Notes: generated by a model not told the origin, from the sequence alone. Counted from the first letter of the stretch, positions 773 through 38,792 are shown. The stretch is DNA of 64,000 bases from an uncultured Candidatus Saccharibacteria bacterium (GCA_964361405.1 CAYIAA010000002.1:5299-69298); one strand, 5' to 3'. Numbers and translations: made by a program.

Positions 773-844
773 TGCCGGGTCATCTAATTGGTAGGATACA
801 TGGCTCTGAACCATGGCATCTAGGTTCGACCCCTAGCCCGGCAG
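773..844 (+). tRNA. tRNA-Gln (anticodon CTG)
   Basis: Cloverleaf by hand: acceptor TGCCGGG/CCCGGCA with U1:A72 (typical of bacterial tRNA-Gln), D-stem ATCT/GGAT, anticodon stem CATGG/CCATG, loop CTCTGAA, T-arm CTAGG-TTCGACC-CCTAG; CCA not encoded. Confidence 0.85.
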
Positions 845-985
845 TTACGAAGTGTAACGGAATAATTGCCGGGCTAGGAAGGGAGGGGTTGGGAACCGTG
901 CTATGGTTCCCATGGAGGAAGGCAGCGAGTTTTCGAGCGTTGGAAAACCGTGGGTTTCCAAACCCCGTATGCCCGGCAGTTTTGA

Positions 986-3413: not shown

Positions 3414-3535
3414 TCCGCGCTGTATGAATTCCGCATGTTTGTCGTTAGAGGAAGAGATTGCTAACACAAACTTCTTGAAGAGTAATATTTATGTATGTTA
3501 ATCTGATGTAGTCTATAAACTAAAATCAAAAAAAT

Positions 3536-4084
3536 ATGTTTGACGTTACACCCCAAACCCCCACTCATATACCCGAAGTTATATTTAAAACTCGTGTAAG
3601 GGATGAATCGGTAGGCGGAGAAAATCCATATCGCTGGCAGGATGTCAAAAGCGGAGAAATATTCAGTGGAAAAAAAGTAGTAGTGTTTGCTTTGCCGGGA
3701 GCTTTCACGCCAACATGCTCATCTACTCACTTGCCCGGCTACGAGTCACAGTATGATGAACTTAAAAAGCACGTTGCCGAAGTGTATTGTCTGTCCGTAA
3801 ATGATGCTTTTGTTATGAATAAATGGGGCAAGGATCAGGGAGTGACCAAGGTCAAACTTTTGCCCGATGGATCTGGCGAATTTACTAAAGCTATGGGAAT
3901 GCTAGTCAAAAAAGACAACTTAGGCTTCGGCGAGCGTTCTTGGCGATACAGCATGTATGTCGATAACGGTGAGATTAAAAAAGTATTTGCCGAAGCGGGG
4001 TTCGGTGACAACTGCCCAACTGATCCATTTGAAGTGAGTGATGCCGACACGATGCGTACATATCTTGAGAGCCAAAAAACGTAA
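3536..4084 (+). CDS. peroxiredoxin, Prx5-like (AhpC/TSA family)
   Basis: VVVFALPGAFTPTCS peroxidatic-Cys motif; length and pattern typical of the PRX5 subfamily. Confidence 0.85.
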   Translation: MFDVTPQTPTHIPEVIFKTRVRDESVGGENPYRWQDVKSGEIFSGKKVVVFALPGAFTPTCSSTHLPGYESQYDELKKHVAEVYCLSVNDAFVMNKWGKDQGVTKVKLLPDGSGEFTKAMGMLVKKDNLGFGERSWRYSMYVDNGEIKKVFAEAGFGDNCPTDPFEVSDADTMRTYLESQKT

Positions 4085-5927: not shown

Positions 5928-5972
5928 CTGCCCCATGATTCCAACAGGAATCATGGGGCAGTTTATTATATT
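5928..5972 (+). terminator. rho-independent terminator
   Basis: Perfect 15-bp stem CTGCCCCATGATTCC / GGAATCATGGGGCAG, loop AACA, then TTTATTATATT. Confidence 0.75.
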
Positions 5973-8016: not shown

Positions 8017-9690
8017 ATGACTTTGTTCTCGAGAGTGAATACCTCGGAGAGAGTGTCCGCACTCCTCATTATTTTTTTCTTGATTGCGCCGCTTCTTGTG
8101 GTGAGTACACCACAAGAAGTCGGAGCGGTTGGGGGAGGCACTTTCACCGATGGAGAGATTATAGACCTCGCAAGACCAGGCGCTGTACGCATTATTACGC
8201 ATGCGCGAGGAACTGCCATCTACAAACCATTTTTTATTGACTTAAATACACTCAATCCGTACACGAATCCGGAACGCGACAGCATTCGAATTTCCTTTGA
8301 CGAATACATTGTCGGTTCAGGCGTACTTGTCAGTTCCAATGGCCACATTTTAACGCTTCTCGGCACGGCGGGTAGGGCGGGTGCGGAGATGAAAGTAGTG
8401 TCCGGAATCGCTCGCGGCGTTCTCGAAGATGAAGTTCGACAGCTTAGCCCGGCGGATCTCGCGGAATTTGAGAGAACGATTTCCGAAGAGGAAAACCAGG
8501 TTCTGATGCGCACACTCCTCTCGCGCATTGAATTTCTTGATGTGATAGAGGAGGTACGGGTGGTTTCATACGAGCACTCTGAAGGTGAAATCCCGGAAAT
8601 ATTTGAAAATGCTATTCCCGCTAAGGTAATCAAAGTAGGTGAATTCTCTACAGAAGAGTATGACGCGTATGTGGTGTTAAAAGTCGAGAAAGAAAACTCT
8701 CACGCTTTGCCGCTTCTTGGTATTTCTAATGGAGTTCTGGGTGGAGAGGATTTAATCGGGACAGCGGTATATGCTTTCCAATTTGGGAATCCAAAGAGAG
8801 GTGAAGGTGGTCGCATTCTCGCACTAGAGCTCAAGCGGGGAGTACTCGATTCTTCTGGGGATCCCAACCTACTAAAAACTTCAATCACACTTGATGAAGG
8901 GTCACGATCTGGACCGATTTTTGATGAGACAGGGGTGGTTCGCGGGCTCGTGAGTTTCCCTTTGCCCGCGGCCTATTCTTCCTTGGAGAAGAGAGAGGCC
9001 CTCTCTGTACCCATCGGTCTCGCGCGGAGCGTACTTGAAGCCGCCGGAGTTAGTGCCGAAGCGGGTGAGTATTATTCTTACCTAAAGAGTGGACTCGAGT
9101 ATTTACATGAGCGTTCCTGTGATCAGGCGATTCAATCCTTCGAAGAAGCGAAGAAGGTGACAGGAAATTTTGTTTCGGGTGGTGCTCTAGACTCTTATAT
9201 CCACACATGTAGCGAGCTAATCGGGCGCGGCAATTCACTCGACACTCTTTGGGACTCTTTCACCGAATTCCTTGGACGACTTGGACCAAGCATTTGGTTA
9301 CTCATTTTTGGTGCTCTCGTTACGGTGCTTCTCATTGCCTCAGTCGCTATGCGTTTAAAGAAAGAAGAAGTGCCCCAATCATCTCGAGAGGGGTCTATAC
9401 GTCGTGGTCTCTCAGGTAGTGCAGTGCTCAATCCGAAAGAGGAGAAGAATGAGGCGGCACAACCTGAGAAAGCGAAAGCCAGAGAGAGAGAAGTGTCTCC
9501 GGCGGACTTAGATGCGGAGGCGTCGCGGGAGATATCTACGTTAAAGCCGGAGAAGATTGACCGTTATGTTATCAATATGAAAAATGCCGGAATGGGCGAA
9601 GACACCATCATCGAACAGCTTCAACGCATCGGCTTTTCACAGGAGCAAATCTACGAAGCGGTAGTGAAGCCGCATTTCAGAGCGCGTTAA
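8017..9690 (+). CDS. membrane-anchored trypsin-like serine protease (S1 family) with cytoplasmic tail
   Basis: Signal/TM at N-terminus, GSGVLVSSNGHILT (catalytic His region), EGSRSGPIFD (GxSGxP-like Ser region), internal TM SIWLLIFGALVTVLLIASVA, K/E-rich tail. Confidence 0.6.
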   Translation: MTLFSRVNTSERVSALLIIFFLIAPLLVVSTPQEVGAVGGGTFTDGEIIDLARPGAVRIITHARGTAIYKPFFIDLNTLNPYTNPERDSIRISFDEYIVGSGVLVSSNGHILTLLGTAGRAGAEMKVVSGIARGVLEDEVRQLSPADLAEFERTISEEENQVLMRTLLSRIEFLDVIEEVRVVSYEHSEGEIPEIFENAIPAKVIKVGEFSTEEYDAYVVLKVEKENSHALPLLGISNGVLGGEDLIGTAVYAFQFGNPKRGEGGRILALELKRGVLDSSGDPNLLKTSITLDEGSRSGPIFDETGVVRGLVSFPLPAAYSSLEKREALSVPIGLARSVLEAAGVSAEAGEYYSYLKSGLEYLHERSCDQAIQSFEEAKKVTGNFVSGGALDSYIHTCSELIGRGNSLDTLWDSFTEFLGRLGPSIWLLIFGALVTVLLIASVAMRLKKEEVPQSSREGSIRRGLSGSAVLNPKEEKNEAAQPEKAKAREREVSPADLDAEASREISTLKPEKIDRYVINMKNAGMGEDTIIEQLQRIGFSQEQIYEAVVKPHFRAR

Positions 9691-10139: not shown

Positions 10140-10169
10140 GGCAAAAAAAGTATAGCACAGAAAAAAGTA

Positions 10170-10201
10170 GGGGTGGAAATCATATGATTTCCACCCCTTT
10201 T
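10170..10201. terminator. bidirectional rho-independent terminator (perfect 28-bp palindrome)
   Basis: GGGGTGGAAATCAT|ATGATTTCCACCCC followed by T-runs on both strands; lies 5 nt after the stop of the minus-strand mini-gene 10205-10438. Confidence 0.65.
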
Positions 10202-27981: not shown

Positions 27982-28021
27982 AGTAATGCCCACCACGCAA
28001 CTCTGCGTGGTGGGCATTACT
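27982..28021. terminator. bidirectional hairpin terminator (perfect 18-bp stem)
   Basis: AGTAATGCCCACCACGCA-ACTC-TGCGTGGTGGGCATTACT between convergent genes. Confidence 0.65.
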
Positions 28022-31020: not shown

Positions 31021-31366
31021 TTTGTGCCGGATAGGTGCTCTTCGCTTCATGCGGGGAGAGGAAAGTCCGAACACTCACACACGGAAGTGTGTAGCAAGGT
31101 AGCGGGTAACGCCCGTCGGGAGTAATCCTAGAGATGCGAACAGAGACGTTGCTCTCCGAAAGGAGAGCAACATCATCTGATAAATCAGATGATGAGTCCC
31201 GACAGAAATGTCGGGAGTGAAACGGCAAAATTCTTACCTGAGTGCAAGGCCGAGTCCCGCCTTTTGGCGGGAAGCGCCGCTTGATCCCCTCGGCGACGTC
31301 GGGACCAGATAGATACCTATCGTTCCGCTTTGAGCGGAATACAGAATTCGGCTTATAGGCACAAAG
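31021..31366 (+). ncRNA. rnpB: RNase P RNA (bacterial type A)
   Basis: P4 halves GAGGAAAGTCCGAAC ... and ... ACAGAATTCGGCTTATAGG; GGTAACGCC ... GGGAGTAA module; P1 pairing TTTGTGCC/GGCACAAA. Confidence 0.85.
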
Positions 31367-31382
31367 CAAGAACTATGAAAAA

Positions 31383-31408
31383 CCCCGCCTTACTGGCGGG
31401 GTTTTTCT
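31383..31408. terminator. bidirectional rho-independent terminator
   Basis: CCCCGCC-ttact-GGCGGGG followed by TTTTTCT; A-run on the other side serves the minus-strand gene. Confidence 0.7.
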
Positions 31409-35851: not shown

Positions 35852-36223
35852 ATGCGGAGAAATGAGAGACGGAAAAGAAAATTTTCGCTGAAAAGCTACG
35901 GTGTAGCCCTTGGTTTGATCGCCCTCATCGTTTTCCTCGCGAAGCCGGTGTGGGGCGTGTATCAGAAGGAGAGGGCAGTGCGGGCGGAGGAGCGCGAGAC
36001 CAGAAGAGAGCTTAATACACTTCTCGAGCGCAAGGCATTTCTTGAGACCGAGGTGGCGCGTCTCTCGAGTGGGCGGGGTATTGAGGAAGAGGTACGGACC
36101 AAGTTCCCCGTAGCACAGCCAGGCGAAGAAGTTATTGTCGTTGTTGATGAAGAAGGGACTGCCACGTCTTCAGCGAGTGCTCAAGGAGGTTTTTGGAGTA
36201 AGATATTTCCCTGGTTCAGGTAA
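35852..36223 (+). CDS. septum formation initiator-like protein (FtsB/DivIC-like)
   Basis: N-terminal basic stretch, single TM, coiled coil ELNTLLERKAFLETEVARL. Confidence 0.45.
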   Translation: MRRNERRKRKFSLKSYGVALGLIALIVFLAKPVWGVYQKERAVRAEERETRRELNTLLERKAFLETEVARLSSGRGIEEEVRTKFPVAQPGEEVIVVVDEEGTATSSASAQGGFWSKIFPWFR

Positions 36224-36256
36224 GGGAGTGGAGGTTGGTCTGGATATCTCGGATAA

Positions 36257-36327
36257 GCGGGTGTGGTTTAGTGGTAGAACAGTTGCTTCCCAAGCAACGG
36301 GCTGGGGTTCGATTCCCCGCACCCGCA
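36257..36327 (+). tRNA. tRNA-Gly (anticodon CCC)
   Basis: Acceptor GCGGGTG/CACCCGC, anticodon stem GTTGC/GCAAC, loop TTCCCAA, T-loop TTCGATT; 3' end anchored by ORF-frame arithmetic. Confidence 0.85.
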
Positions 36328-36330
36328 TCT

Positions 36331-36621
36331 GTGGCAAGAAAATTTAAGATCAAAAAAGAAAATTTCACCTGTAGTCACTGTAGTACAAGTGTCTGCGGCG
36401 ACGGGTATACAAATCACTGTCCAGCGTGCCTGTGGAGCAAGCACGTTGATGTCTATCCGGGAGATCGCGCGGAATTCTGCGGTGGAGCGATGCGCCCAAA
36501 GAGTGTCTTAATGAAGGCTGGGAGTTACACTATCACGCATGTCTGTGAACTTTGTGGGGCACAGCGATTGTGTAAAACATCTCCTGGTGACAACTTTGAA
36601 GCCATACTCGCCCTGTGTTAG
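36331..36621 (+). CDS. RNHCP-domain zinc-ribbon protein
   Basis: CSHCSTSVCGDGYTNHCPACLW ... C..C..C; only candidate start is the GTG 4 nt after the tRNA-Gly 3' end. Confidence 0.55.
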   Translation: MARKFKIKKENFTCSHCSTSVCGDGYTNHCPACLWSKHVDVYPGDRAEFCGGAMRPKSVLMKAGSYTITHVCELCGAQRLCKTSPGDNFEAILALC

Positions 36622-37151
36622 CATGTGAACACTCTCTGATGCAAAGCCGTTACTACATTAAGGATATTGTCTATGGTGCTAATGACGGCATTATCACGAC
36701 CTTTGCCATTGTGTCCGGAGTCATCGGCGCAGGGCTCTCGATGAGGACAGTGCTCATCATCGGAACCGCATCGCTCGCCGCCGATGCATTCTCCATGGCG
36801 AGCTCGAGCTATCTCGGCTCTCTATCAGAGCGCGCCGCCTTCCCACGCTTACGAGATGAAGGGGTCGTGGAGCGTCACACGAACCCGCTTACTGCCGCCC
36901 TCATCACTTTTATTTCCTTCGTGGTTGCCGGATCGATGCCACTCCTTCCGTACGTTATCTTCCGCGGAGAGGGGTTTGTGTTTTTCTTTACCGCGACCGT
37001 GACAGGACTTGCGCTCTTTCTCGCGGGGGCGCTCCGGTCGCATTTTACCCACCGCAATTTTGTCGTGAGCGGTATTGAGATGCTTGTGGTTGGTGGGATT
37101 GCCGCGGGTATTGCCTTTACGCTTGGAAAGCTGGTAAGTATCCTGACATAG
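36615..37151 (+). CDS. VIT1/CCC1-family iron/manganese transporter
   Basis: DGIITTFAIVSGVIGA ... 5 TM segments; GTG 36615 overlaps the upstream stop; alternative ATG at 36639. Confidence 0.7.
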   Translation: MLACEHSLMQSRYYIKDIVYGANDGIITTFAIVSGVIGAGLSMRTVLIIGTASLAADAFSMASSSYLGSLSERAAFPRLRDEGVVERHTNPLTAALITFISFVVAGSMPLLPYVIFRGEGFVFFFTATVTGLALFLAGALRSHFTHRNFVVSGIEMLVVGGIAAGIAFTLGKLVSILT

Positions 37152-37262
37152 ACTCCCCGTAGCCCCGACGCAAGGTCGGGGTCCCGACTATAACGTCGGG
37201 ATTCAATGGACTCGATAAGCAATGTGCTGACACCCCGGTATTTTGCTATAGTCTGAAATGTT
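37152..37262 (+). repeat. degenerate tRNA-Arg 5' fragment with two CCCGAC/GTCGGG hairpins
   Basis: ACTCCCCGTAG (37152-37162) and TTCAATGGA copy the tRNA 5' acceptor and D-loop; hairpins CCCCGAC-gcaag-GTCGGGG (37163-37181) and CCCGAC-tataac-GTCGGG (37183-37200). Confidence 0.45.
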
Positions 37263-37264
37263 TC

Positions 37265-37336
37265 CTCCCCGTAGTTCAATGGATAGAACAAGGGACTCCT
37301 AAGCCCTAGATGCAGGTTCGATTCCTGCCGGGGGGA
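37265..37336 (+). tRNA. tRNA-Arg (anticodon CCT)
   Basis: Acceptor CTCCCCG/CGGGGGG (U2:G71), D-arm GTTC-AATGGATA-GAAC, anticodon loop CTCCTAA, T-arm GCAGG-TTCGATT-CCTGC; A31-G39 mismatch in the anticodon stem. Confidence 0.75.
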
Positions 37337-37454
37337 GCGAAGCGAGCCGCGGAGAAAACCCCAAGGGAGTTTTCGTCAAGAATCGAAGGCCGGACCCCGA
37401 CCTGTCGGGGGAGGCGGGGTCGCGACTTCCCGCAGTGGCGGGAAAGTTGTGACT

Positions 37455-37471
37455 GATTCCTGCCGGGGGGA
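37455..37471 (+). repeat. 17-nt direct repeat of the tRNA-Arg 3' end (att-like)
   Basis: GATTCCTGCCGGGGGGA is identical to 37320-37336; a third hairpin CCCCGA-cctg-TCGGGG (37395-37410) lies between the copies. Confidence 0.6.
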
Positions 37472-37513
37472 TGTTTGAAATGACAATTAGTTTTGCTAGA
37501 ATGAGTGTAGCCT

Positions 37514-37789
37514 ATGTCTGATGAAGGAATAGAGGCCCTAGTGCGTGAAAACCTTGCGTTAAGCCAGGAGAACCACCGCCTCCTTAAAAAGCTCTACAAT
37601 CAAGCGCGTATCTCACGGGCAGTGAAATCTCTGTACTGGCTTTTCATTATCGGATCCGCATTCGGAGCTTACTATTTTCTTCAGCCGTACCTCGAAACGC
37701 TTATGAGCACGTACGAAAAGGCAAACAGCATTCTCGAGGATCCCCGTTCATTTCTTCCCGGAAATGTTATCGATGGAGGGGCTCAGTAA
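37514..37789 (+). CDS. hypothetical small membrane protein (91 aa)
   Basis: -10-like TAGAAT upstream; one TM (LYWLFIIGSAFGAYYFL). Confidence 0.35.
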   Translation: MSDEGIEALVRENLALSQENHRLLKKLYNQARISRAVKSLYWLFIIGSAFGAYYFLQPYLETLMSTYEKANSILEDPRSFLPGNVIDGGAQ

Positions 37790-37804
37790 GAGAAACTGTT
37801 TTTT

Positions 37805-37877
37805 CGCTGGGATAGCTCAGTTGGTAGAGCATCTGCCTGAAGAGCAGAGGGTCGGCAGTTCGAGCCTGCCTCCCAGC
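37805..37877 (+). tRNA. tRNA-Phe (anticodon GAA)
   Basis: GCTGGGA-TA-GCTC-AGTTGGTA-GAGC, anticodon loop CTGAAGA, T-arm GGCAG-TTCGAGC-CTGCC, acceptor TCCCAGC + A. Confidence 0.9.
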
Positions 37878-37996
37878 ACATTCAGTCCAAGGCCGACCAA
37901 TCTTGGGTTGGGATACATGTAAACTCATTGTGCTACTTTCTATCGGGTCGAAGAGTAACACATTAGTAAGTTATTTATTCTGAATATAGAGAAAAT

Positions 37997-38245
37997 ATGG
38001 AAAAAGAAATAGGCAAGGTTACGCATTGGTACAATAAAATTTCCGTCGCCGTTATCAAGCTCACCGGAGGGCTTAAGACTGGAGACACAATCAAAGTGAA
38101 ACACGGAGAAGAAGAATCTGAAGAGACCGTTTCGTCGATGCAGATTGATCACGAGGCAGTGGAATCTGCTAAAAAAGGAGATGAAGTTGCCGTCAAACTT
38201 TCAGGCGAAGCGCGGGACGGCTCCACAGTTTTCAAAGTTTCATAA
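37997..38245 (+). CDS. small beta-barrel protein resembling EF-Tu domain 2
   Basis: GKVTHWYNKISVAVIKLTGGLKTGDTIKV ... VSSMQIDHEAVESAKKGDEVAVKL (translation-factor domain II pattern). Confidence 0.4.
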   Translation: MEKEIGKVTHWYNKISVAVIKLTGGLKTGDTIKVKHGEEESEETVSSMQIDHEAVESAKKGDEVAVKLSGEARDGSTVFKVS

Positions 38246-38333
38246 TTTCTCGACTACTCACTTTTACGTTTTCAAAAACACCTCTCTCTTTTTTTGGCAG
38301 GGGTGTTTTTGAAATGGGAGGTGACGTATCCGT

Positions 38334-38792
38334 TTAGCTTGATTTAACTCTCACTTTTTGGATTCTTTCTTTGTCTATTTTTGGAAGTCGGATAGTGAGG
38401 AGGCCTTGTTTTTCGGTTGCCTCGGCGCTCTCGGCGTCCACTTCCTGCGGCAAGAGGATACTCCGAGAGAATGATCCCCAGTAGAGCTCTTTGAGGAAAT
38501 AGTCGTTTTCGAGGGCCGTGGTTTCGGCCTGGCGTTTACCTTGAATCGTCACCATCTCTCGCGAAATGGTTATCTGGAGGTCTTCGGGTTTAACGCCGGC
38601 AACCATAGTTTTGACAATGATTGCGTCCGGCGTTTGGTGGACGTCTACCAAGAGTTGTCCTTCGTCGGCCTCGGTTTCCATCCAATCCGTGCGTTTAGAC
38701 GGTTTGCCGCTCGCCCCGAGCACGGTACTATCGTCTTCAATGTGGATGCTTCCTGTGAGTCGTTCGAAAAAAGAGCGTTTGTTCCTCGGCAT
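38334..38792 (-). CDS. Hsp20/alpha-crystallin small heat-shock protein
   Basis: ACD pattern DVHQTPDAIIVKTMVAGVKPEDLQITI ... GLLTIRLPK. Confidence 0.85.
   Translation of the reverse strand: MPRNKRSFFERLTGSIHIEDDSTVLGASGKPSKRTDWMETEADEGQLLVDVHQTPDAIIVKTMVAGVKPEDLQITISREMVTIQGKRQAETTALENDYFLKELYWGSFSRSILLPQEVDAESAEATEKQGLLTIRLPKIDKERIQKVRVKSS

What the first reader, a model, noticed from the sequence alone, without database searches (positions are those of the whole stretch)
37152..37475. tRNA-Arg(CCT) locus with a duplicated 3' end, a duplicated 5' fragment and a family of CCCGAC/GTCGGG hairpins, probably an integration/excision scar
The last 17 nt of tRNA-Arg (GATTCCTGCCGGGGGGA, 37320-37336) recur perfectly 119 bp downstream (37455-37471), the classic signature of site-specific integration into a tRNA 3' end (attL/attR). 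Upstream, an 11-nt copy of the tRNA 5' acceptor plus TAG (ACTCCCCGTAG) and a D-loop-like TTCAATGGA are interrupted by two GC hairpins sharing a CCCGAC/GTCGGG core. A third copy of the hairpin motif lies between the direct repeats. The interval between the repeats is too small for an intact element, so this is either a scar left by excision or a miniature non-autonomous element. No integrase gene is seen nearby, but the locus is flanked by a cluster of small hypothetical genes and two more tRNAs (Gly, Phe).
Basis: seen in the sequence. Interest (0 to 1): 0.6.

Follow-up and report, generated by a model that had tools for sequence, protein, structure and literature searches.

The report
Split tRNA-Arg gene rebuilt around hairpin inserts
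In this Patescibacteria genome the original tRNA-Arg(CCT) gene has been pulled apart by small gene-less, hairpin-rich insertions that carry a working replacement copy, and a similar hairpin module sits behind tRNA-Gln, so this looks like a recurring but still unexplained way of remodelling tRNA gene ends rather than a live mobile element.

Summary
tRNA-Arg(CCT) lies at 37265-37336. Its last 17 nt recur exactly at 37455-37471. Its first 19 nt lie upstream (37153-62 and 37202-10), split by a 39-nt double hairpin.

Related metagenome contigs show the history:
- One relative (L010) has a single intact tRNA running from the VIT1 stop codon to the promoter of the next gene.
- Four others (L017-L020) have tRNA, a ~121-nt insert and the displaced 3' end.
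- Only the window lineage also has the displaced 5' end.

So the two fragments are the ends of the ancestral gene, and the working tRNA lies inside inserted DNA.

No integrase, cargo or parent element was found. The insert is not a neutral scar. It keeps strong hairpins, and it differs at about 33 positions between strains that otherwise differ by 1 SNP in 5 kb. It also contains an antisense copy of the tRNA T-loop.

tRNA-Gln (773-980) has the same layout. There the module is 97% conserved in a relative, against 60-77% for the flanks.

Best reading: a relic of T-loop-type site-specific insertion, later remodelled by hairpin-driven copying. The surviving hairpin module probably acts as a structured tRNA trailer. 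Confidence is moderate, and the origin is not proven.

The parts
36615..37151 (+). VIT1-family transporter gene. Its stop codon TAG (37149-51) is followed by A and then the ancestral tRNA start.
   Evidence: Pfam VIT1, E=1e-37. The same stop+A+tRNA junction is seen in L010, L012/L019, L016-L022.
37153..37162 (+). Ancestral 5' end of tRNA-Arg (positions 1-10, CTCCCCGTAG), left in place.
   Evidence: Exact 10-mer match to 37265-74. It occupies the position of the tRNA start in all relatives. The junction is confirmed by L014 and L015.
37163..37201 (+). 39-nt double hairpin inserted between positions 10 and 11 of the displaced 5' fragment (CCCCGAC-GCAAG-GTCGGGG, then TCCCGAC-TATAAC-GTCGGGA).
   Evidence: It matches the reverse complement of the X2 hairpin plus flank at 19 of 22 positions, and 0 of 2000 shuffles score as well. 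It is absent from all relatives.
37202..37210 (+). Ancestral tRNA positions 11-19 (TTCAATGGA), the end of the displaced 5' fragment.
   Evidence: Exact 9-mer. The sequence beyond it has no significant similarity to the rest of the tRNA.
37211..37264 (+). X1: a 54-nt segment of unknown origin in front of the working tRNA. It carries an extended -10-like TGCTATAGT at 37244-52 (inferred promoter).
   Evidence: No source sequence was found in the window or the related loci. The consensus promoter scan did not flag it.
37265..37336 (+). Functional tRNA-Arg(CCT). CCA is not encoded. The T arm is GCAGG/CCTGC.
   Evidence: ARAGORN; Rfam tRNA, 62.4 bits.
37337..37454 (+). X2: the 118-nt hairpin-rich insert. 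It contains hairpin A' (37354-74), the antisense T-loop motif GAATCGAA (37380-87), hairpin B' CCCCGACCTGTCGGGG (37395-410), and the long hairpin C' (37419-53), which abuts the 3' fragment.
   Evidence: RNA fold -63.4 kcal/mol, z=-2.5. The sense strand folds 7.5 kcal/mol better than the antisense strand. No Rfam family matches. Relatives carry a 120-121-nt counterpart at the same position.
37455..37471 (+). Displaced ancestral 3' end of tRNA-Arg (T-loop GATT through discriminator A). It is still joined to the original downstream flank.
   Evidence: Exact 17-mer. It is followed by TGTTTGAAAT, as is the single tRNA copy in L010.
37475..37502 (+). Promoter-like site (TTGAAA-16-TAGAAT, with TG) of the 91-aa gene at 37514-37789. 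This is the conserved right-hand flank of the ancestral tRNA.
   Evidence: Conserved in L010 and L016-L020.
773..844 (+). tRNA-Gln(CTG), head of a second locus with the same layout.
845..866 (+). Spacer with a small hairpin between tRNA-Gln and its antisense copy. It is flipped in the relative L080.
   Evidence: Window 845-878 matches L080 4413-4380 in reverse orientation at 31 of 34 positions.
867..979 (+). 113-nt structured module. It starts with TGCCGGGCTAGG (the antisense of the tRNA-Gln 3' end). A decayed inverted copy of the tRNA continues for about 46 nt of tRNA sequence. Two hairpins follow (890-912 and 927-948). It ends with ACCCCGTATGCCCGGCAG (962-979), a direct copy of the tRNA 3' end starting in the T-loop.
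   Evidence: p<0.001 against the reverse-complemented tRNA. Fold z=-4.3. There are 3 substitutions in 113 nt against L080, while the flanks are 60-77% identical. No Rfam hit.

Best explanation
The locus is the rebuilt remains of one tRNA-Arg(CCT) gene.

Shown:
- The ancestral gene ran from one base after the VIT1 stop codon (37153) to the base before the promoter of the 91-aa gene (37471).
- About 120 nt now sit between a complete tRNA 3' end and the displaced original 3' end. The duplicated block starts in the T-loop and ends at the discriminator.
- In the window lineage only, the first 19 nt were also displaced. The working tRNA now lies 112 nt further downstream, behind a 54-nt segment with its own promoter-like box.
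- A 39-nt double hairpin, copied in inverted orientation from the hairpin in the downstream insert, was later inserted into the dead 5' piece.

Inferred:
- The first event was an integrase-type, T-loop site-specific insertion whose coding part has been lost, or it was a gene-less module from the start.
- Hairpin-driven template switching during replication then remodelled the DNA. That would account for the inverted copies, the flipped loop and the swapped hairpins.
- The surviving hairpin module is kept because, as part of the tRNA transcript, it acts as a structured trailer that ends, insulates or helps process the transcript.

Nothing indicates that it is mobile today.
For: - Unoccupied, 3'-only and 3'+5' states are seen in relatives at an identical position.
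- The repeat boundaries (T-loop position 57 to the discriminator) match the regenerated-target-plus-displaced-fragment geometry of tRNA-targeting integrases (PMC4383910, PMC1762012). Phage contigs elsewhere carry this same tRNA-Arg 3' block without a tRNA (L005, L006).
- The 17-mer is unique to the locus.
- The double hairpin is an inverted copy of the X2 hairpin.
- The tRNA-Gln spacer is flipped between two genomes. tRNA-Arg is inverted in the more distant relative L025, with gene order otherwise kept.
- The hairpins are maintained although the sequence turns over: fold z-scores are -2.5, -3.8 and -3.8. Stems are compensated between the two insert types (CCAC/GUGG versus CCCA/UGGG, read from the sequences and the fold). 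All three changes in hairpin B keep the pair as G.U.
- The sense strand folds 5-12 kcal/mol better than the antisense strand in all Arg and Gln modules.
- The Gln module is 97% conserved against 60-77% flanks.
- The whole stretch 37153-37471 folds at z=-5.1 with the tRNA cloverleaf intact.
Against: - No integrase, cargo or parent element was found. There is none inside the insert and none among the 19 window ORFs scanned. Viral contigs gave nothing for the junctions or motifs, and phage records match only the tRNA part.
- Displacement of a 5' fragment is not the usual integrase outcome.
- The window insert and the L017/L019 inserts are not significantly alike in sequence (p about 0.3). A shared origin therefore rests on position, length (118-121 nt), two shared 8-mers in the same order, and layout.
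- Inverted tRNA-derived segments, and nearly the same length at two unrelated tRNAs, are not predicted by random decay of an island.
- No U-tract terminators were detected, so a terminator role is only a guess.
- There are no expression data.
Confidence: 0.45

Rival explanations
1. No mobile element was ever involved. The direct-inverted-direct pattern of tRNA-derived pieces arose by replication template switching (fold-back synthesis and re-priming) at the stable tRNA T-arm. Later template switches then created, flipped and replaced hairpins.
For: - An inverted partial copy of tRNA-Gln, collinear over about 46 nt, is followed by a direct 3' copy.
- Antisense copies of the tRNA's own 3' half lie behind tRNA-Arg and tRNA-Gly.
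- The Gln spacer is flipped at 31 of 34 positions, and the double hairpin is an inverted copy of a neighbouring hairpin.
- Hairpin A is replaced by another perfect stem between genomes that are otherwise identical.
- Template switching is known to create perfect hairpins in one step (PMC10710096).
- The Gln proximal and distal flanks are weakly alike just past the tRNA end (TTACGAAGTG versus TTTTGA-GTG, read).
Against: - In the Arg locus the repeat ends exactly at the discriminator, with no flank identity beyond it.
- Most of X1 and X2 has no local source sequence.
- The model does not predict the same boundary (T-loop to tRNA end) and the same length at two loci.
- L019's hairpin arms have no nearby template.
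Confidence: 0.25
2. The modules behind tRNA-Arg and tRNA-Gln are genes for small structured RNAs under selection. Each is closed by a helix between an antisense segment and a sense copy of its tRNA's 3' end (a tRNA-like minihelix in the Gln case). The tRNA-processing enzymes would cut them out, and the duplicated 3' end would then be a functional part rather than a by-product.
For: - The Gln module has 3 changes in 113 nt while the flanks are 60-77% identical.
- It begins with the acceptor 5' strand plus the T-stem 5' strand and ends with T-stem 3', acceptor 3' and discriminator G, with fold z of -4.3 and -5.5.
- In the L019 fold, GGGAAUC pairs with GAUUCCU of the distal fragment and encloses two hairpins.
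- Folding favours the sense strand.
- The antisense motif tracks the proximal tRNA's own T-stem version in each lineage.
Against: - Only two Gln sequences are available, and recent recombination could give the same conservation pattern.
- The Arg inserts vary wildly within one species, and one relative lacks the insert altogether (L010).
- There is no sequence similarity between the Arg and Gln modules and no Rfam family.
- There is no covariation statistic worth the name with 2-3 sequences.
Confidence: 0.2
3. It is an active miniature non-autonomous integrative element (CIME-like), moved in trans by an integrase encoded elsewhere in the genome or by a phage.
For: - The module is flanked by direct att-like repeats.
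- It shows presence, absence and variant states among relatives.
- Near-identical strains carry different alleles.
- Sizes are similar at two tRNAs (118-121 nt for Arg and 117 nt for Gln).
Against: - A double-stranded circle of about 135 bp is too small for ordinary tyrosine-recombinase excision.
- The ends of the two Arg alleles stay identical while the middle changes, which is not what whole-cassette exchange predicts.
- No copy of any module was found elsewhere and no integrase was seen.
- The Arg and Gln modules share no sequence outside the tRNA-derived parts.
Confidence: 0.08
4. It is an assembly artefact: a collapsed or chimeric join of tRNA-containing reads from mixed strains.
For: - Short-read contigs of the same strain break inside this locus (L001 and L002 start at 37299; L014 and L015 end in the hairpins).
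- One related contig (L016) does look chimeric across the shared tRNA.
Against: - Both outer junctions and the whole X2-plus-fragment stretch are reproduced in independent samples.
- Relatives assembled by other groups show the 3' arrangement five times.
- The fragments sit exactly at the ancestral gene ends, which a chimera would not produce.
Confidence: 0.02

Closest known systems
tRNA-targeting genomic islands and prophages with tyrosine integrases (T-loop sublocation, such as mycobacteriophage Ms6; Islander-type islands)
   Same: A regenerated complete tRNA is followed by inserted DNA and then a direct copy of the tRNA 3' part, from the T-loop to the 3' end. A relative has the unoccupied site with a single copy.
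   Different: The bounded DNA is only 118-121 nt, with no integrase and no cargo. A 5' fragment is displaced as well. The insert carries an antisense piece of the tRNA. No parent element was found anywhere that was searched.
CIMEs (cis-mobilizable elements): att-flanked, gene-poor derivatives of integrative elements in streptococci (named from my own knowledge, not checked in a paper here)
   Same: A short segment bounded by attL/attR-like repeats at a tRNA 3' end, lacking its own recombination genes.
   Different: CIMEs are kilobase-scale and are recognisably derived from a known ICE with the same att site. Here there are about 120 nt, no related autonomous element is known, and mobilisation is untested.
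Template-switch mutations and hairpin-associated minute inversions (de novo hairpins from replication template switching, PMC10710096; loop inversions in plastid non-coding DNA, from my own knowledge)
   Same: Inverted local copies, a hairpin loop flipped between close relatives, and perfect stems replaced in one step without gradual change.
   Different: Those processes do not by themselves explain a duplication that ends exactly at the tRNA 3' end, nor the arrival of sequence with no local template.
Integrase-driven inversions between tRNA genes in Thermococcales (PMC5495485)
   Same: tRNA gene sequences act as substrates for rearrangement. In the relative L025 tRNA-Arg is inverted within conserved gene order.
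   Different: Those are large chromosomal inversions between distant tRNA genes with a known plasmid integrase. Here the events span tens to hundreds of bases and no enzyme has been identified.
REP/BIME-type intergenic hairpin repeats
   Same: Short GC-rich hairpins in transcribed intergenic DNA, with mosaic arrangements that vary between strains.
   Different: The CCCGAC/GTCGGG hairpins are confined to this locus (plus one helix of RNase P RNA) in 64 kb. They are not dispersed, and no RAYT-type gene was seen.

Membership tests
tRNA-integrated genomic island / prophage (tyrosine integrase) | A regenerated tRNA gene plus a displaced 3' fragment in direct orientation, with the identity block starting at the anticodon loop, T-loop or 3' end | tested here: met
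   The exact 17-nt repeat starts in the T-loop (GATT) and ends at discriminator A. The same holds in L017-L020.
tRNA-integrated genomic island / prophage (tyrosine integrase) | An integrase gene inside the bounded segment | tested here: not met
   The bounded segment is 118 nt. Its only ORF is a 48-aa frame that starts inside the tRNA. No integrase domain was found in the 19 ORFs scanned, neighbours included.
tRNA-integrated genomic island / prophage (tyrosine integrase) | An unoccupied site with one copy of the repeat in a related genome | tested here: met
   In L010 the tRNA is followed directly by TGTTTGAAAT and the 91-aa gene. Whether that state is primary or a secondary deletion is unresolved.
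tRNA-integrated genomic island / prophage (tyrosine integrase) | A related occupied site or free element carrying the same att core | tested here: not met
   The viral-contig junction scans gave chance hits or none. Phage records match only the tRNA. The genome scan found no relatives. Coverage of this lineage in those collections is poor.
CIME-like non-autonomous integrative element | Excision or integration driven in trans by a cognate integrase | not testable with these tools
   This needs the complete genome, read-level data or an experiment.
MITE / IS-derived miniature transposon | Terminal inverted repeats at the element ends, a short target duplication, and many dispersed copies | tested here: not met
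   The insert ends (GCGAAG... and ...GTGACT) are not inverted repeats. The duplication is 17 nt long. No further copies were found in the window or the related loci.
Any described RNA family (Rfam 15) | A match at or near the gathering score | tested here: not met
   Only the tRNAs and RNase P RNA pass. The permissive scans of 37100-37520 and 760-1010 gave only noise of at most 19 bits.
Intrinsic terminator | A GC-rich hairpin followed by a U tract | tested here: not met
   No plus-strand terminator-like site was found in 36000-38400. None of the hairpins is followed by a T run.
Template-switch / hairpin-mediated rearrangement | Inverted local copies and loop inversion between inverted arms | tested here: met
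   The double hairpin matches the reverse complement of X2 at 19 of 22 positions, with 0 of 2000 shuffles as good. The Gln spacer is flipped at 31 of 34 positions. An inverted tRNA-Gln copy is present, p<0.001.

The most novel reading that the evidence does not exclude
The ~115-135-nt modules behind tRNA-Arg and tRNA-Gln would be an undescribed class of tRNA-templated structured RNA elements in Patescibacteria. Each is built from an antisense and a sense copy of its own tRNA's 3' half, and these close a two-hairpin domain. Selection would maintain them, and RNase P and RNase Z may release them as tRNA-like minihelices. On this reading the duplicated tRNA end is a working part of the element, not a recombination by-product.
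Probability: 0.18. Interest if true: 0.7.

Novelty: new variant of a known kind. Interest (0 to 1): 0.45.

Why it matters
Displaced tRNA fragments are the standard markers used to delimit genomic islands. Here the same signature bounds only about 120 nt of hairpins, it persists across species-level divergence, and the working tRNA is nested inside the ends of its predecessor.

This matters in three ways:
- Island-finding methods would misread such loci.
- In these small-genome bacteria, tRNA gene ends appear to be hot spots for small-scale DNA remodelling: insertion, inversion and hairpin swapping.
- If the modules are kept for a function at the RNA level, they are a cheap new type of tRNA-linked structured RNA, testable by RNA-seq. 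If they are only relics, the locus is a tidy textbook case and little more.

Tried and rejected
- Pseudo-tRNA idea: I asked whether the upstream piece is a decayed whole tRNA (AATGGA|CTCGATAAGC looked like the anticodon arm). Local alignment of X1 against tRNA positions 17-72 scores below most shuffles (1746 of 2000 score at least as well). The fragment is only 19 nt.
- X1 as a copy of the downstream promoter: they share only TTTTGCTA, p about 0.07. TTTGCTANANT does occur only at these two sites in the window. I left this as weak.
- Tandem duplication of a unit of 17 nt plus flank: the sequence after the distal copy is unlike X2.
- Homology of the window insert with the L017/L019 inserts: not significant, so I do not claim a single shared insertion event.
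- Homology between the Arg and Gln modules: not significant. The shared 9-mer GAGTTTTCG is probably chance.
- Parent element search: the 17-mer in viral contigs hits phage tRNAs, prophage-border tRNAs from unrelated bacteria and two att-like partial copies. The junction 15-19-mers gave chance hits or nothing. Module motifs gave nothing. The phage database matches only the tRNA.
- The 48-aa ORF 37310-37456 across X2 is closed early in the relatives, so it is spurious.
- attC, dif and IS200/IS605 ends were compared by eye only. No core motifs were seen and these were not pursued.
- RNAalifold on the two insert types misaligns the swapped hairpin A, so its covariation counts are usable only for hairpins B and C.

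Full report
**1. What is in the sequence**

ARAGORN and Rfam both place a normal tRNA-Arg(CCT) at 37265-37336. Its last 17 nt, GATTCCTGCCGGGGGGA, recur exactly at 37455-37471 and nowhere else in the 64 kb, even with two mismatches allowed. Chance expectation is 0.01, and 0 of 100 shuffles gave two copies.

Upstream, CTCCCCGTAG (37153-62) and TTCAATGGA (37202-10) equal tRNA positions 1-10 and 11-19. They are separated by two adjacent hairpins, CCCCGAC-GCAAG-GTCGGGG and TCCCGAC-TATAAC-GTCGGGA. A third hairpin with the same core lies between the 17-mers at 37395-37410. The CCCGAC...GTCGGG pattern gives 4 hits against 0.05 expected, and the fourth is a helix of RNase P RNA.

The neighbourhood is housekeeping: LepA, DivIC, tRNA-Gly, a VIT1 transporter, the tRNA-Arg locus, a 91-aa membrane protein, tRNA-Phe, HSP20, PrsW and a class I tRNA synthetase (probably LeuRS). 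Source names on VIT1 and SDR homologues place the organism in Patescibacteria (Parcubacteria/Paceibacteria group).

Independent short-read assemblies of the same strain reproduce both outer parts of the locus (L014, L015, L001, L002). It is therefore not an assembly artefact.

**2. What the relatives show**

Contigs encoding close homologues of the flanking proteins gave three other states of the same locus.

- L010: VIT1 stop TAG, one A, one intact tRNA-Arg, then TGTTTGAAAT and the promoter and gene of the 91-aa protein.
- L017, L018, L020 and L019 (the same contig as L012): the tRNA sits in the same place directly after the stop codon. It is followed by a 120-121-nt insert, then GATTCCTGCCGGGGGG(GGGG)A, then TTTGAAATG and the same promoter.
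- None of the relatives has the 5' fragment, the double hairpin or the 54-nt segment X1.

So window positions 37153 and 37471 are the two ends of the ancestral gene. The upstream 19 nt and the downstream 17 nt are its remains, still attached to their original flanks. The present tRNA lies inside DNA that was not there originally.

X1 carries an extended -10-like TGCTATAGT. This may replace the transcription the tRNA used to receive from VIT1, which is an inference. X1 has no detectable source, and the 5' fragment does not continue into a decayed tRNA.

**3. Does it fit integrase-type integration?**

The duplicated block starts in the T-loop and ends at the discriminator base. That is the known geometry for elements that integrate into a tRNA gene and regenerate it while displacing the original fragment (PMC4383910; T-loop example PMC1762012). 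A relative with a single copy exists. Phage contigs from other environments carry this same tRNA-Arg 3' block without a tRNA (L005, L006).

Against this, the bounded DNA is 118 nt with no gene. None of the 19 ORFs scanned has an integrase domain. Searches of viral contigs and phage records for the junctions and for insert motifs found only chance hits or the tRNA itself. Displacement of a 5' fragment is also not what these integrases normally leave behind. The locus therefore fails membership as an island. At most it is a relic or a gene-less derivative.

**4. The insert is not an inert scar**

All three versions of the Arg insert fold into dense hairpins: -63, -61 and -60 kcal/mol, with z of -2.5, -3.8 and -3.8.

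L019 and L018 belong to one species. Between L019 positions 523 and 5561 they differ at a single SNP, except for a cluster of about 33 differences at 3487-3572, inside the insert. The tRNA, the 91-aa gene, its promoter, the tRNA-Phe region and HSP20 are 100% identical, while the insert is 76% identical.

Hairpin A is replaced by a different perfect stem. Its outer stem changes from CCAC/GUGG to CCCA/UGGG. All three changes in hairpin B keep pairing through G.U.

The window insert is not significantly similar in sequence to these (p about 0.3). It does have the same length, the same start motif (GAAGCGAG), the same internal GAATCGAA and a hairpin abutting the 3' fragment.

GAATCGAA is the reverse complement of the T-loop. 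In each lineage the extended motif matches that lineage's own proximal T-stem version: window CTTGAC~CCTGCC, L017 GGGAATCGAA~TTCGATTCCC.

In every Arg and Gln module the tRNA-sense strand folds 5-12 kcal/mol better than the opposite strand. This points weakly to structure at the RNA level.

**5. A second locus with the same layout**

Screening all 12 tRNAs of the window for nearby copies of their own ends picked out tRNA-Gln (773-844).

- After a 22-nt spacer comes TGCCGGGCTAGG, the exact antisense of the tRNA's last 12 paired nucleotides.
- It continues as a decayed inverted copy collinear with about 46 nt of the tRNA (p<0.001).
- Two hairpins follow.
- Then comes ACCCCGTATGCCCGGCAG, a direct copy of the tRNA 3' end starting in the T-loop.
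- 117 nt separate the tRNA end from this direct copy, against 118-121 nt in the Arg locus.

The 113-nt module folds at z=-4.3 and matches no Rfam family. A relative (L080) has the same arrangement. The module differs at 3 of 113 positions, while the flanking intergenic DNA is 60-77% identical. The 22-nt spacer is flipped, matching at 31 of 34 positions in reverse orientation.

In the L017 lineage tRNA-Gly also has a 76-nt insertion carrying GGGAATCGAA (the antisense of its own T-loop and stem), which the window lacks. In the more distant relative L025, tRNA-Arg is inverted within conserved gene order.

**6. Reading**

The double hairpin in the dead 5' piece is an inverted copy of the X2 hairpin plus flank: 19 of 22 positions, with 0 of 2000 shuffles as good. 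Taken with the flipped spacer and the swapped hairpins, this shows hairpin-mediated copying at work. That kind of process is known to make perfect hairpins in single steps (PMC10710096).

I therefore commit to a composite explanation:
- a T-loop-type site-specific insertion, or gene-less module, produced the 3' duplication;
- a second rearrangement in the window lineage displaced the 5' end;
- template switching then remodelled the hairpins;
- the module persists because it serves as a structured trailer of the tRNA transcript.

Confidence is 0.45. The main rival is a purely replicative origin through fold-back duplication, with no element ever present (0.25). It explains the inverted copies well, but not the exact tRNA-end boundary or the sequence that has no local template. 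A selected small RNA (0.2) rests mostly on the conservation of the Gln module in only two sequences. Current mobility (0.08) and an artefact (0.02) are unlikely.

**7. Limits**

- The lineage is rare in the collections: the 91-aa protein has only eight homologues.
- The genome scan failed.
- Only 2-3 distinct sequences are available per module, so no covariation statistic is meaningful.
- Whether L010 never had the insert or lost it cannot be decided. The three lineages are about equally distant at 79-83%.
- There are no expression data.

Noticed in passing
window 773-980: tRNA-Gln(CTG) is followed by a 22-nt spacer, an inverted partial copy of itself, two hairpins and a direct copy of its last 18 nt. 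The 113-nt module (867-979) is 97% conserved in relative L080, while the flanks are 60-77% identical. It matches no Rfam family.
   Followed up: partly
window 845-878 vs L080 4380-4413: The spacer between the tRNA-Gln 3' end and its antisense copy is flipped between the two genomes (31 of 34 identical in reverse orientation). This is a minute inversion within a 12-13-bp inverted repeat.
   Followed up: partly
L018 2513-2588 (also L017, L019, L020, L021); window 36328-36330: In the L017 lineage a 76-nt insertion lies between tRNA-Gly(CCC) and the RNHCP-domain gene. It contains GGGAATCGAA, the antisense of that tRNA's T-loop and stem. It is absent from the window and has no direct 3' copy and little predicted structure.
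   Followed up: partly
L025 4511-4650: In a more distant relative (VIT1 57% identical) the gene order LepA-DivIC-RNHCP-VIT1...HSP20-PrsW-synthetase is kept. tRNA-Arg(CCT) lies on the opposite strand, with AATCGAA in its 66-nt trailer.
   Followed up: no
window 31197-31216 vs 37182-37201: A helix of RNase P RNA (TCCCGAC-AGAAAT-GTCGGGA) has exactly the same 7-bp stem as the second hairpin of the double hairpin. It could be chance or a copying source; this is unexplained.
   Followed up: no
L019 191-522 vs L018: There are 18 SNPs in about 330 nt of the LepA gene between contigs that are otherwise nearly identical. This looks like a recombination import, so the hypervariable insert could also be an imported tract.
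   Followed up: no
L016 (whole contig) vs L010, L017, L021: L016 joins an L010-type VIT1 gene (84% identical to the L017 type) to downstream DNA that is 100% L017-type, across the shared tRNA. A second contig from the same sample (L021) ends inside the tRNA. L016 is probably a chimeric assembly and was not counted as independent evidence.
   Followed up: partly
L017/L018/L019 vs L020, distal fragment (e.g. L019 3601-3621): The G run of the displaced 3' fragment is 10 G in three contigs and 6 G in L020 and the window. This is homopolymer length variation in the non-functional copy.
   Followed up: no
L010, L016-L020 tRNA-Arg T arm: The relatives' tRNA has T stem GGAGG/CCCCC, with an A.C mismatch. 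Their displaced fragment keeps CCTGC, the version that pairs perfectly in the window tRNA and in unrelated bacteria (L007, L008).
   Followed up: partly
window 5928-5961, 8092-8119, 10169-10198, 27982-28021, 31377-31407: There are long perfect hairpins with 12-18-bp stems elsewhere in the window. The script reported 37 GC-rich perfect hairpins (several are nested calls of one hairpin) against 2-12 in shuffles. They are probably terminators, the last one lying just after RNase P RNA.
   Followed up: no
window 37997-38245: An 82-aa ORF after tRNA-Phe has weak hits to EF-Tu domain 2 and domain 4 models, below the curated cut-offs. It is conserved as a called gene in the relatives.
   Followed up: no
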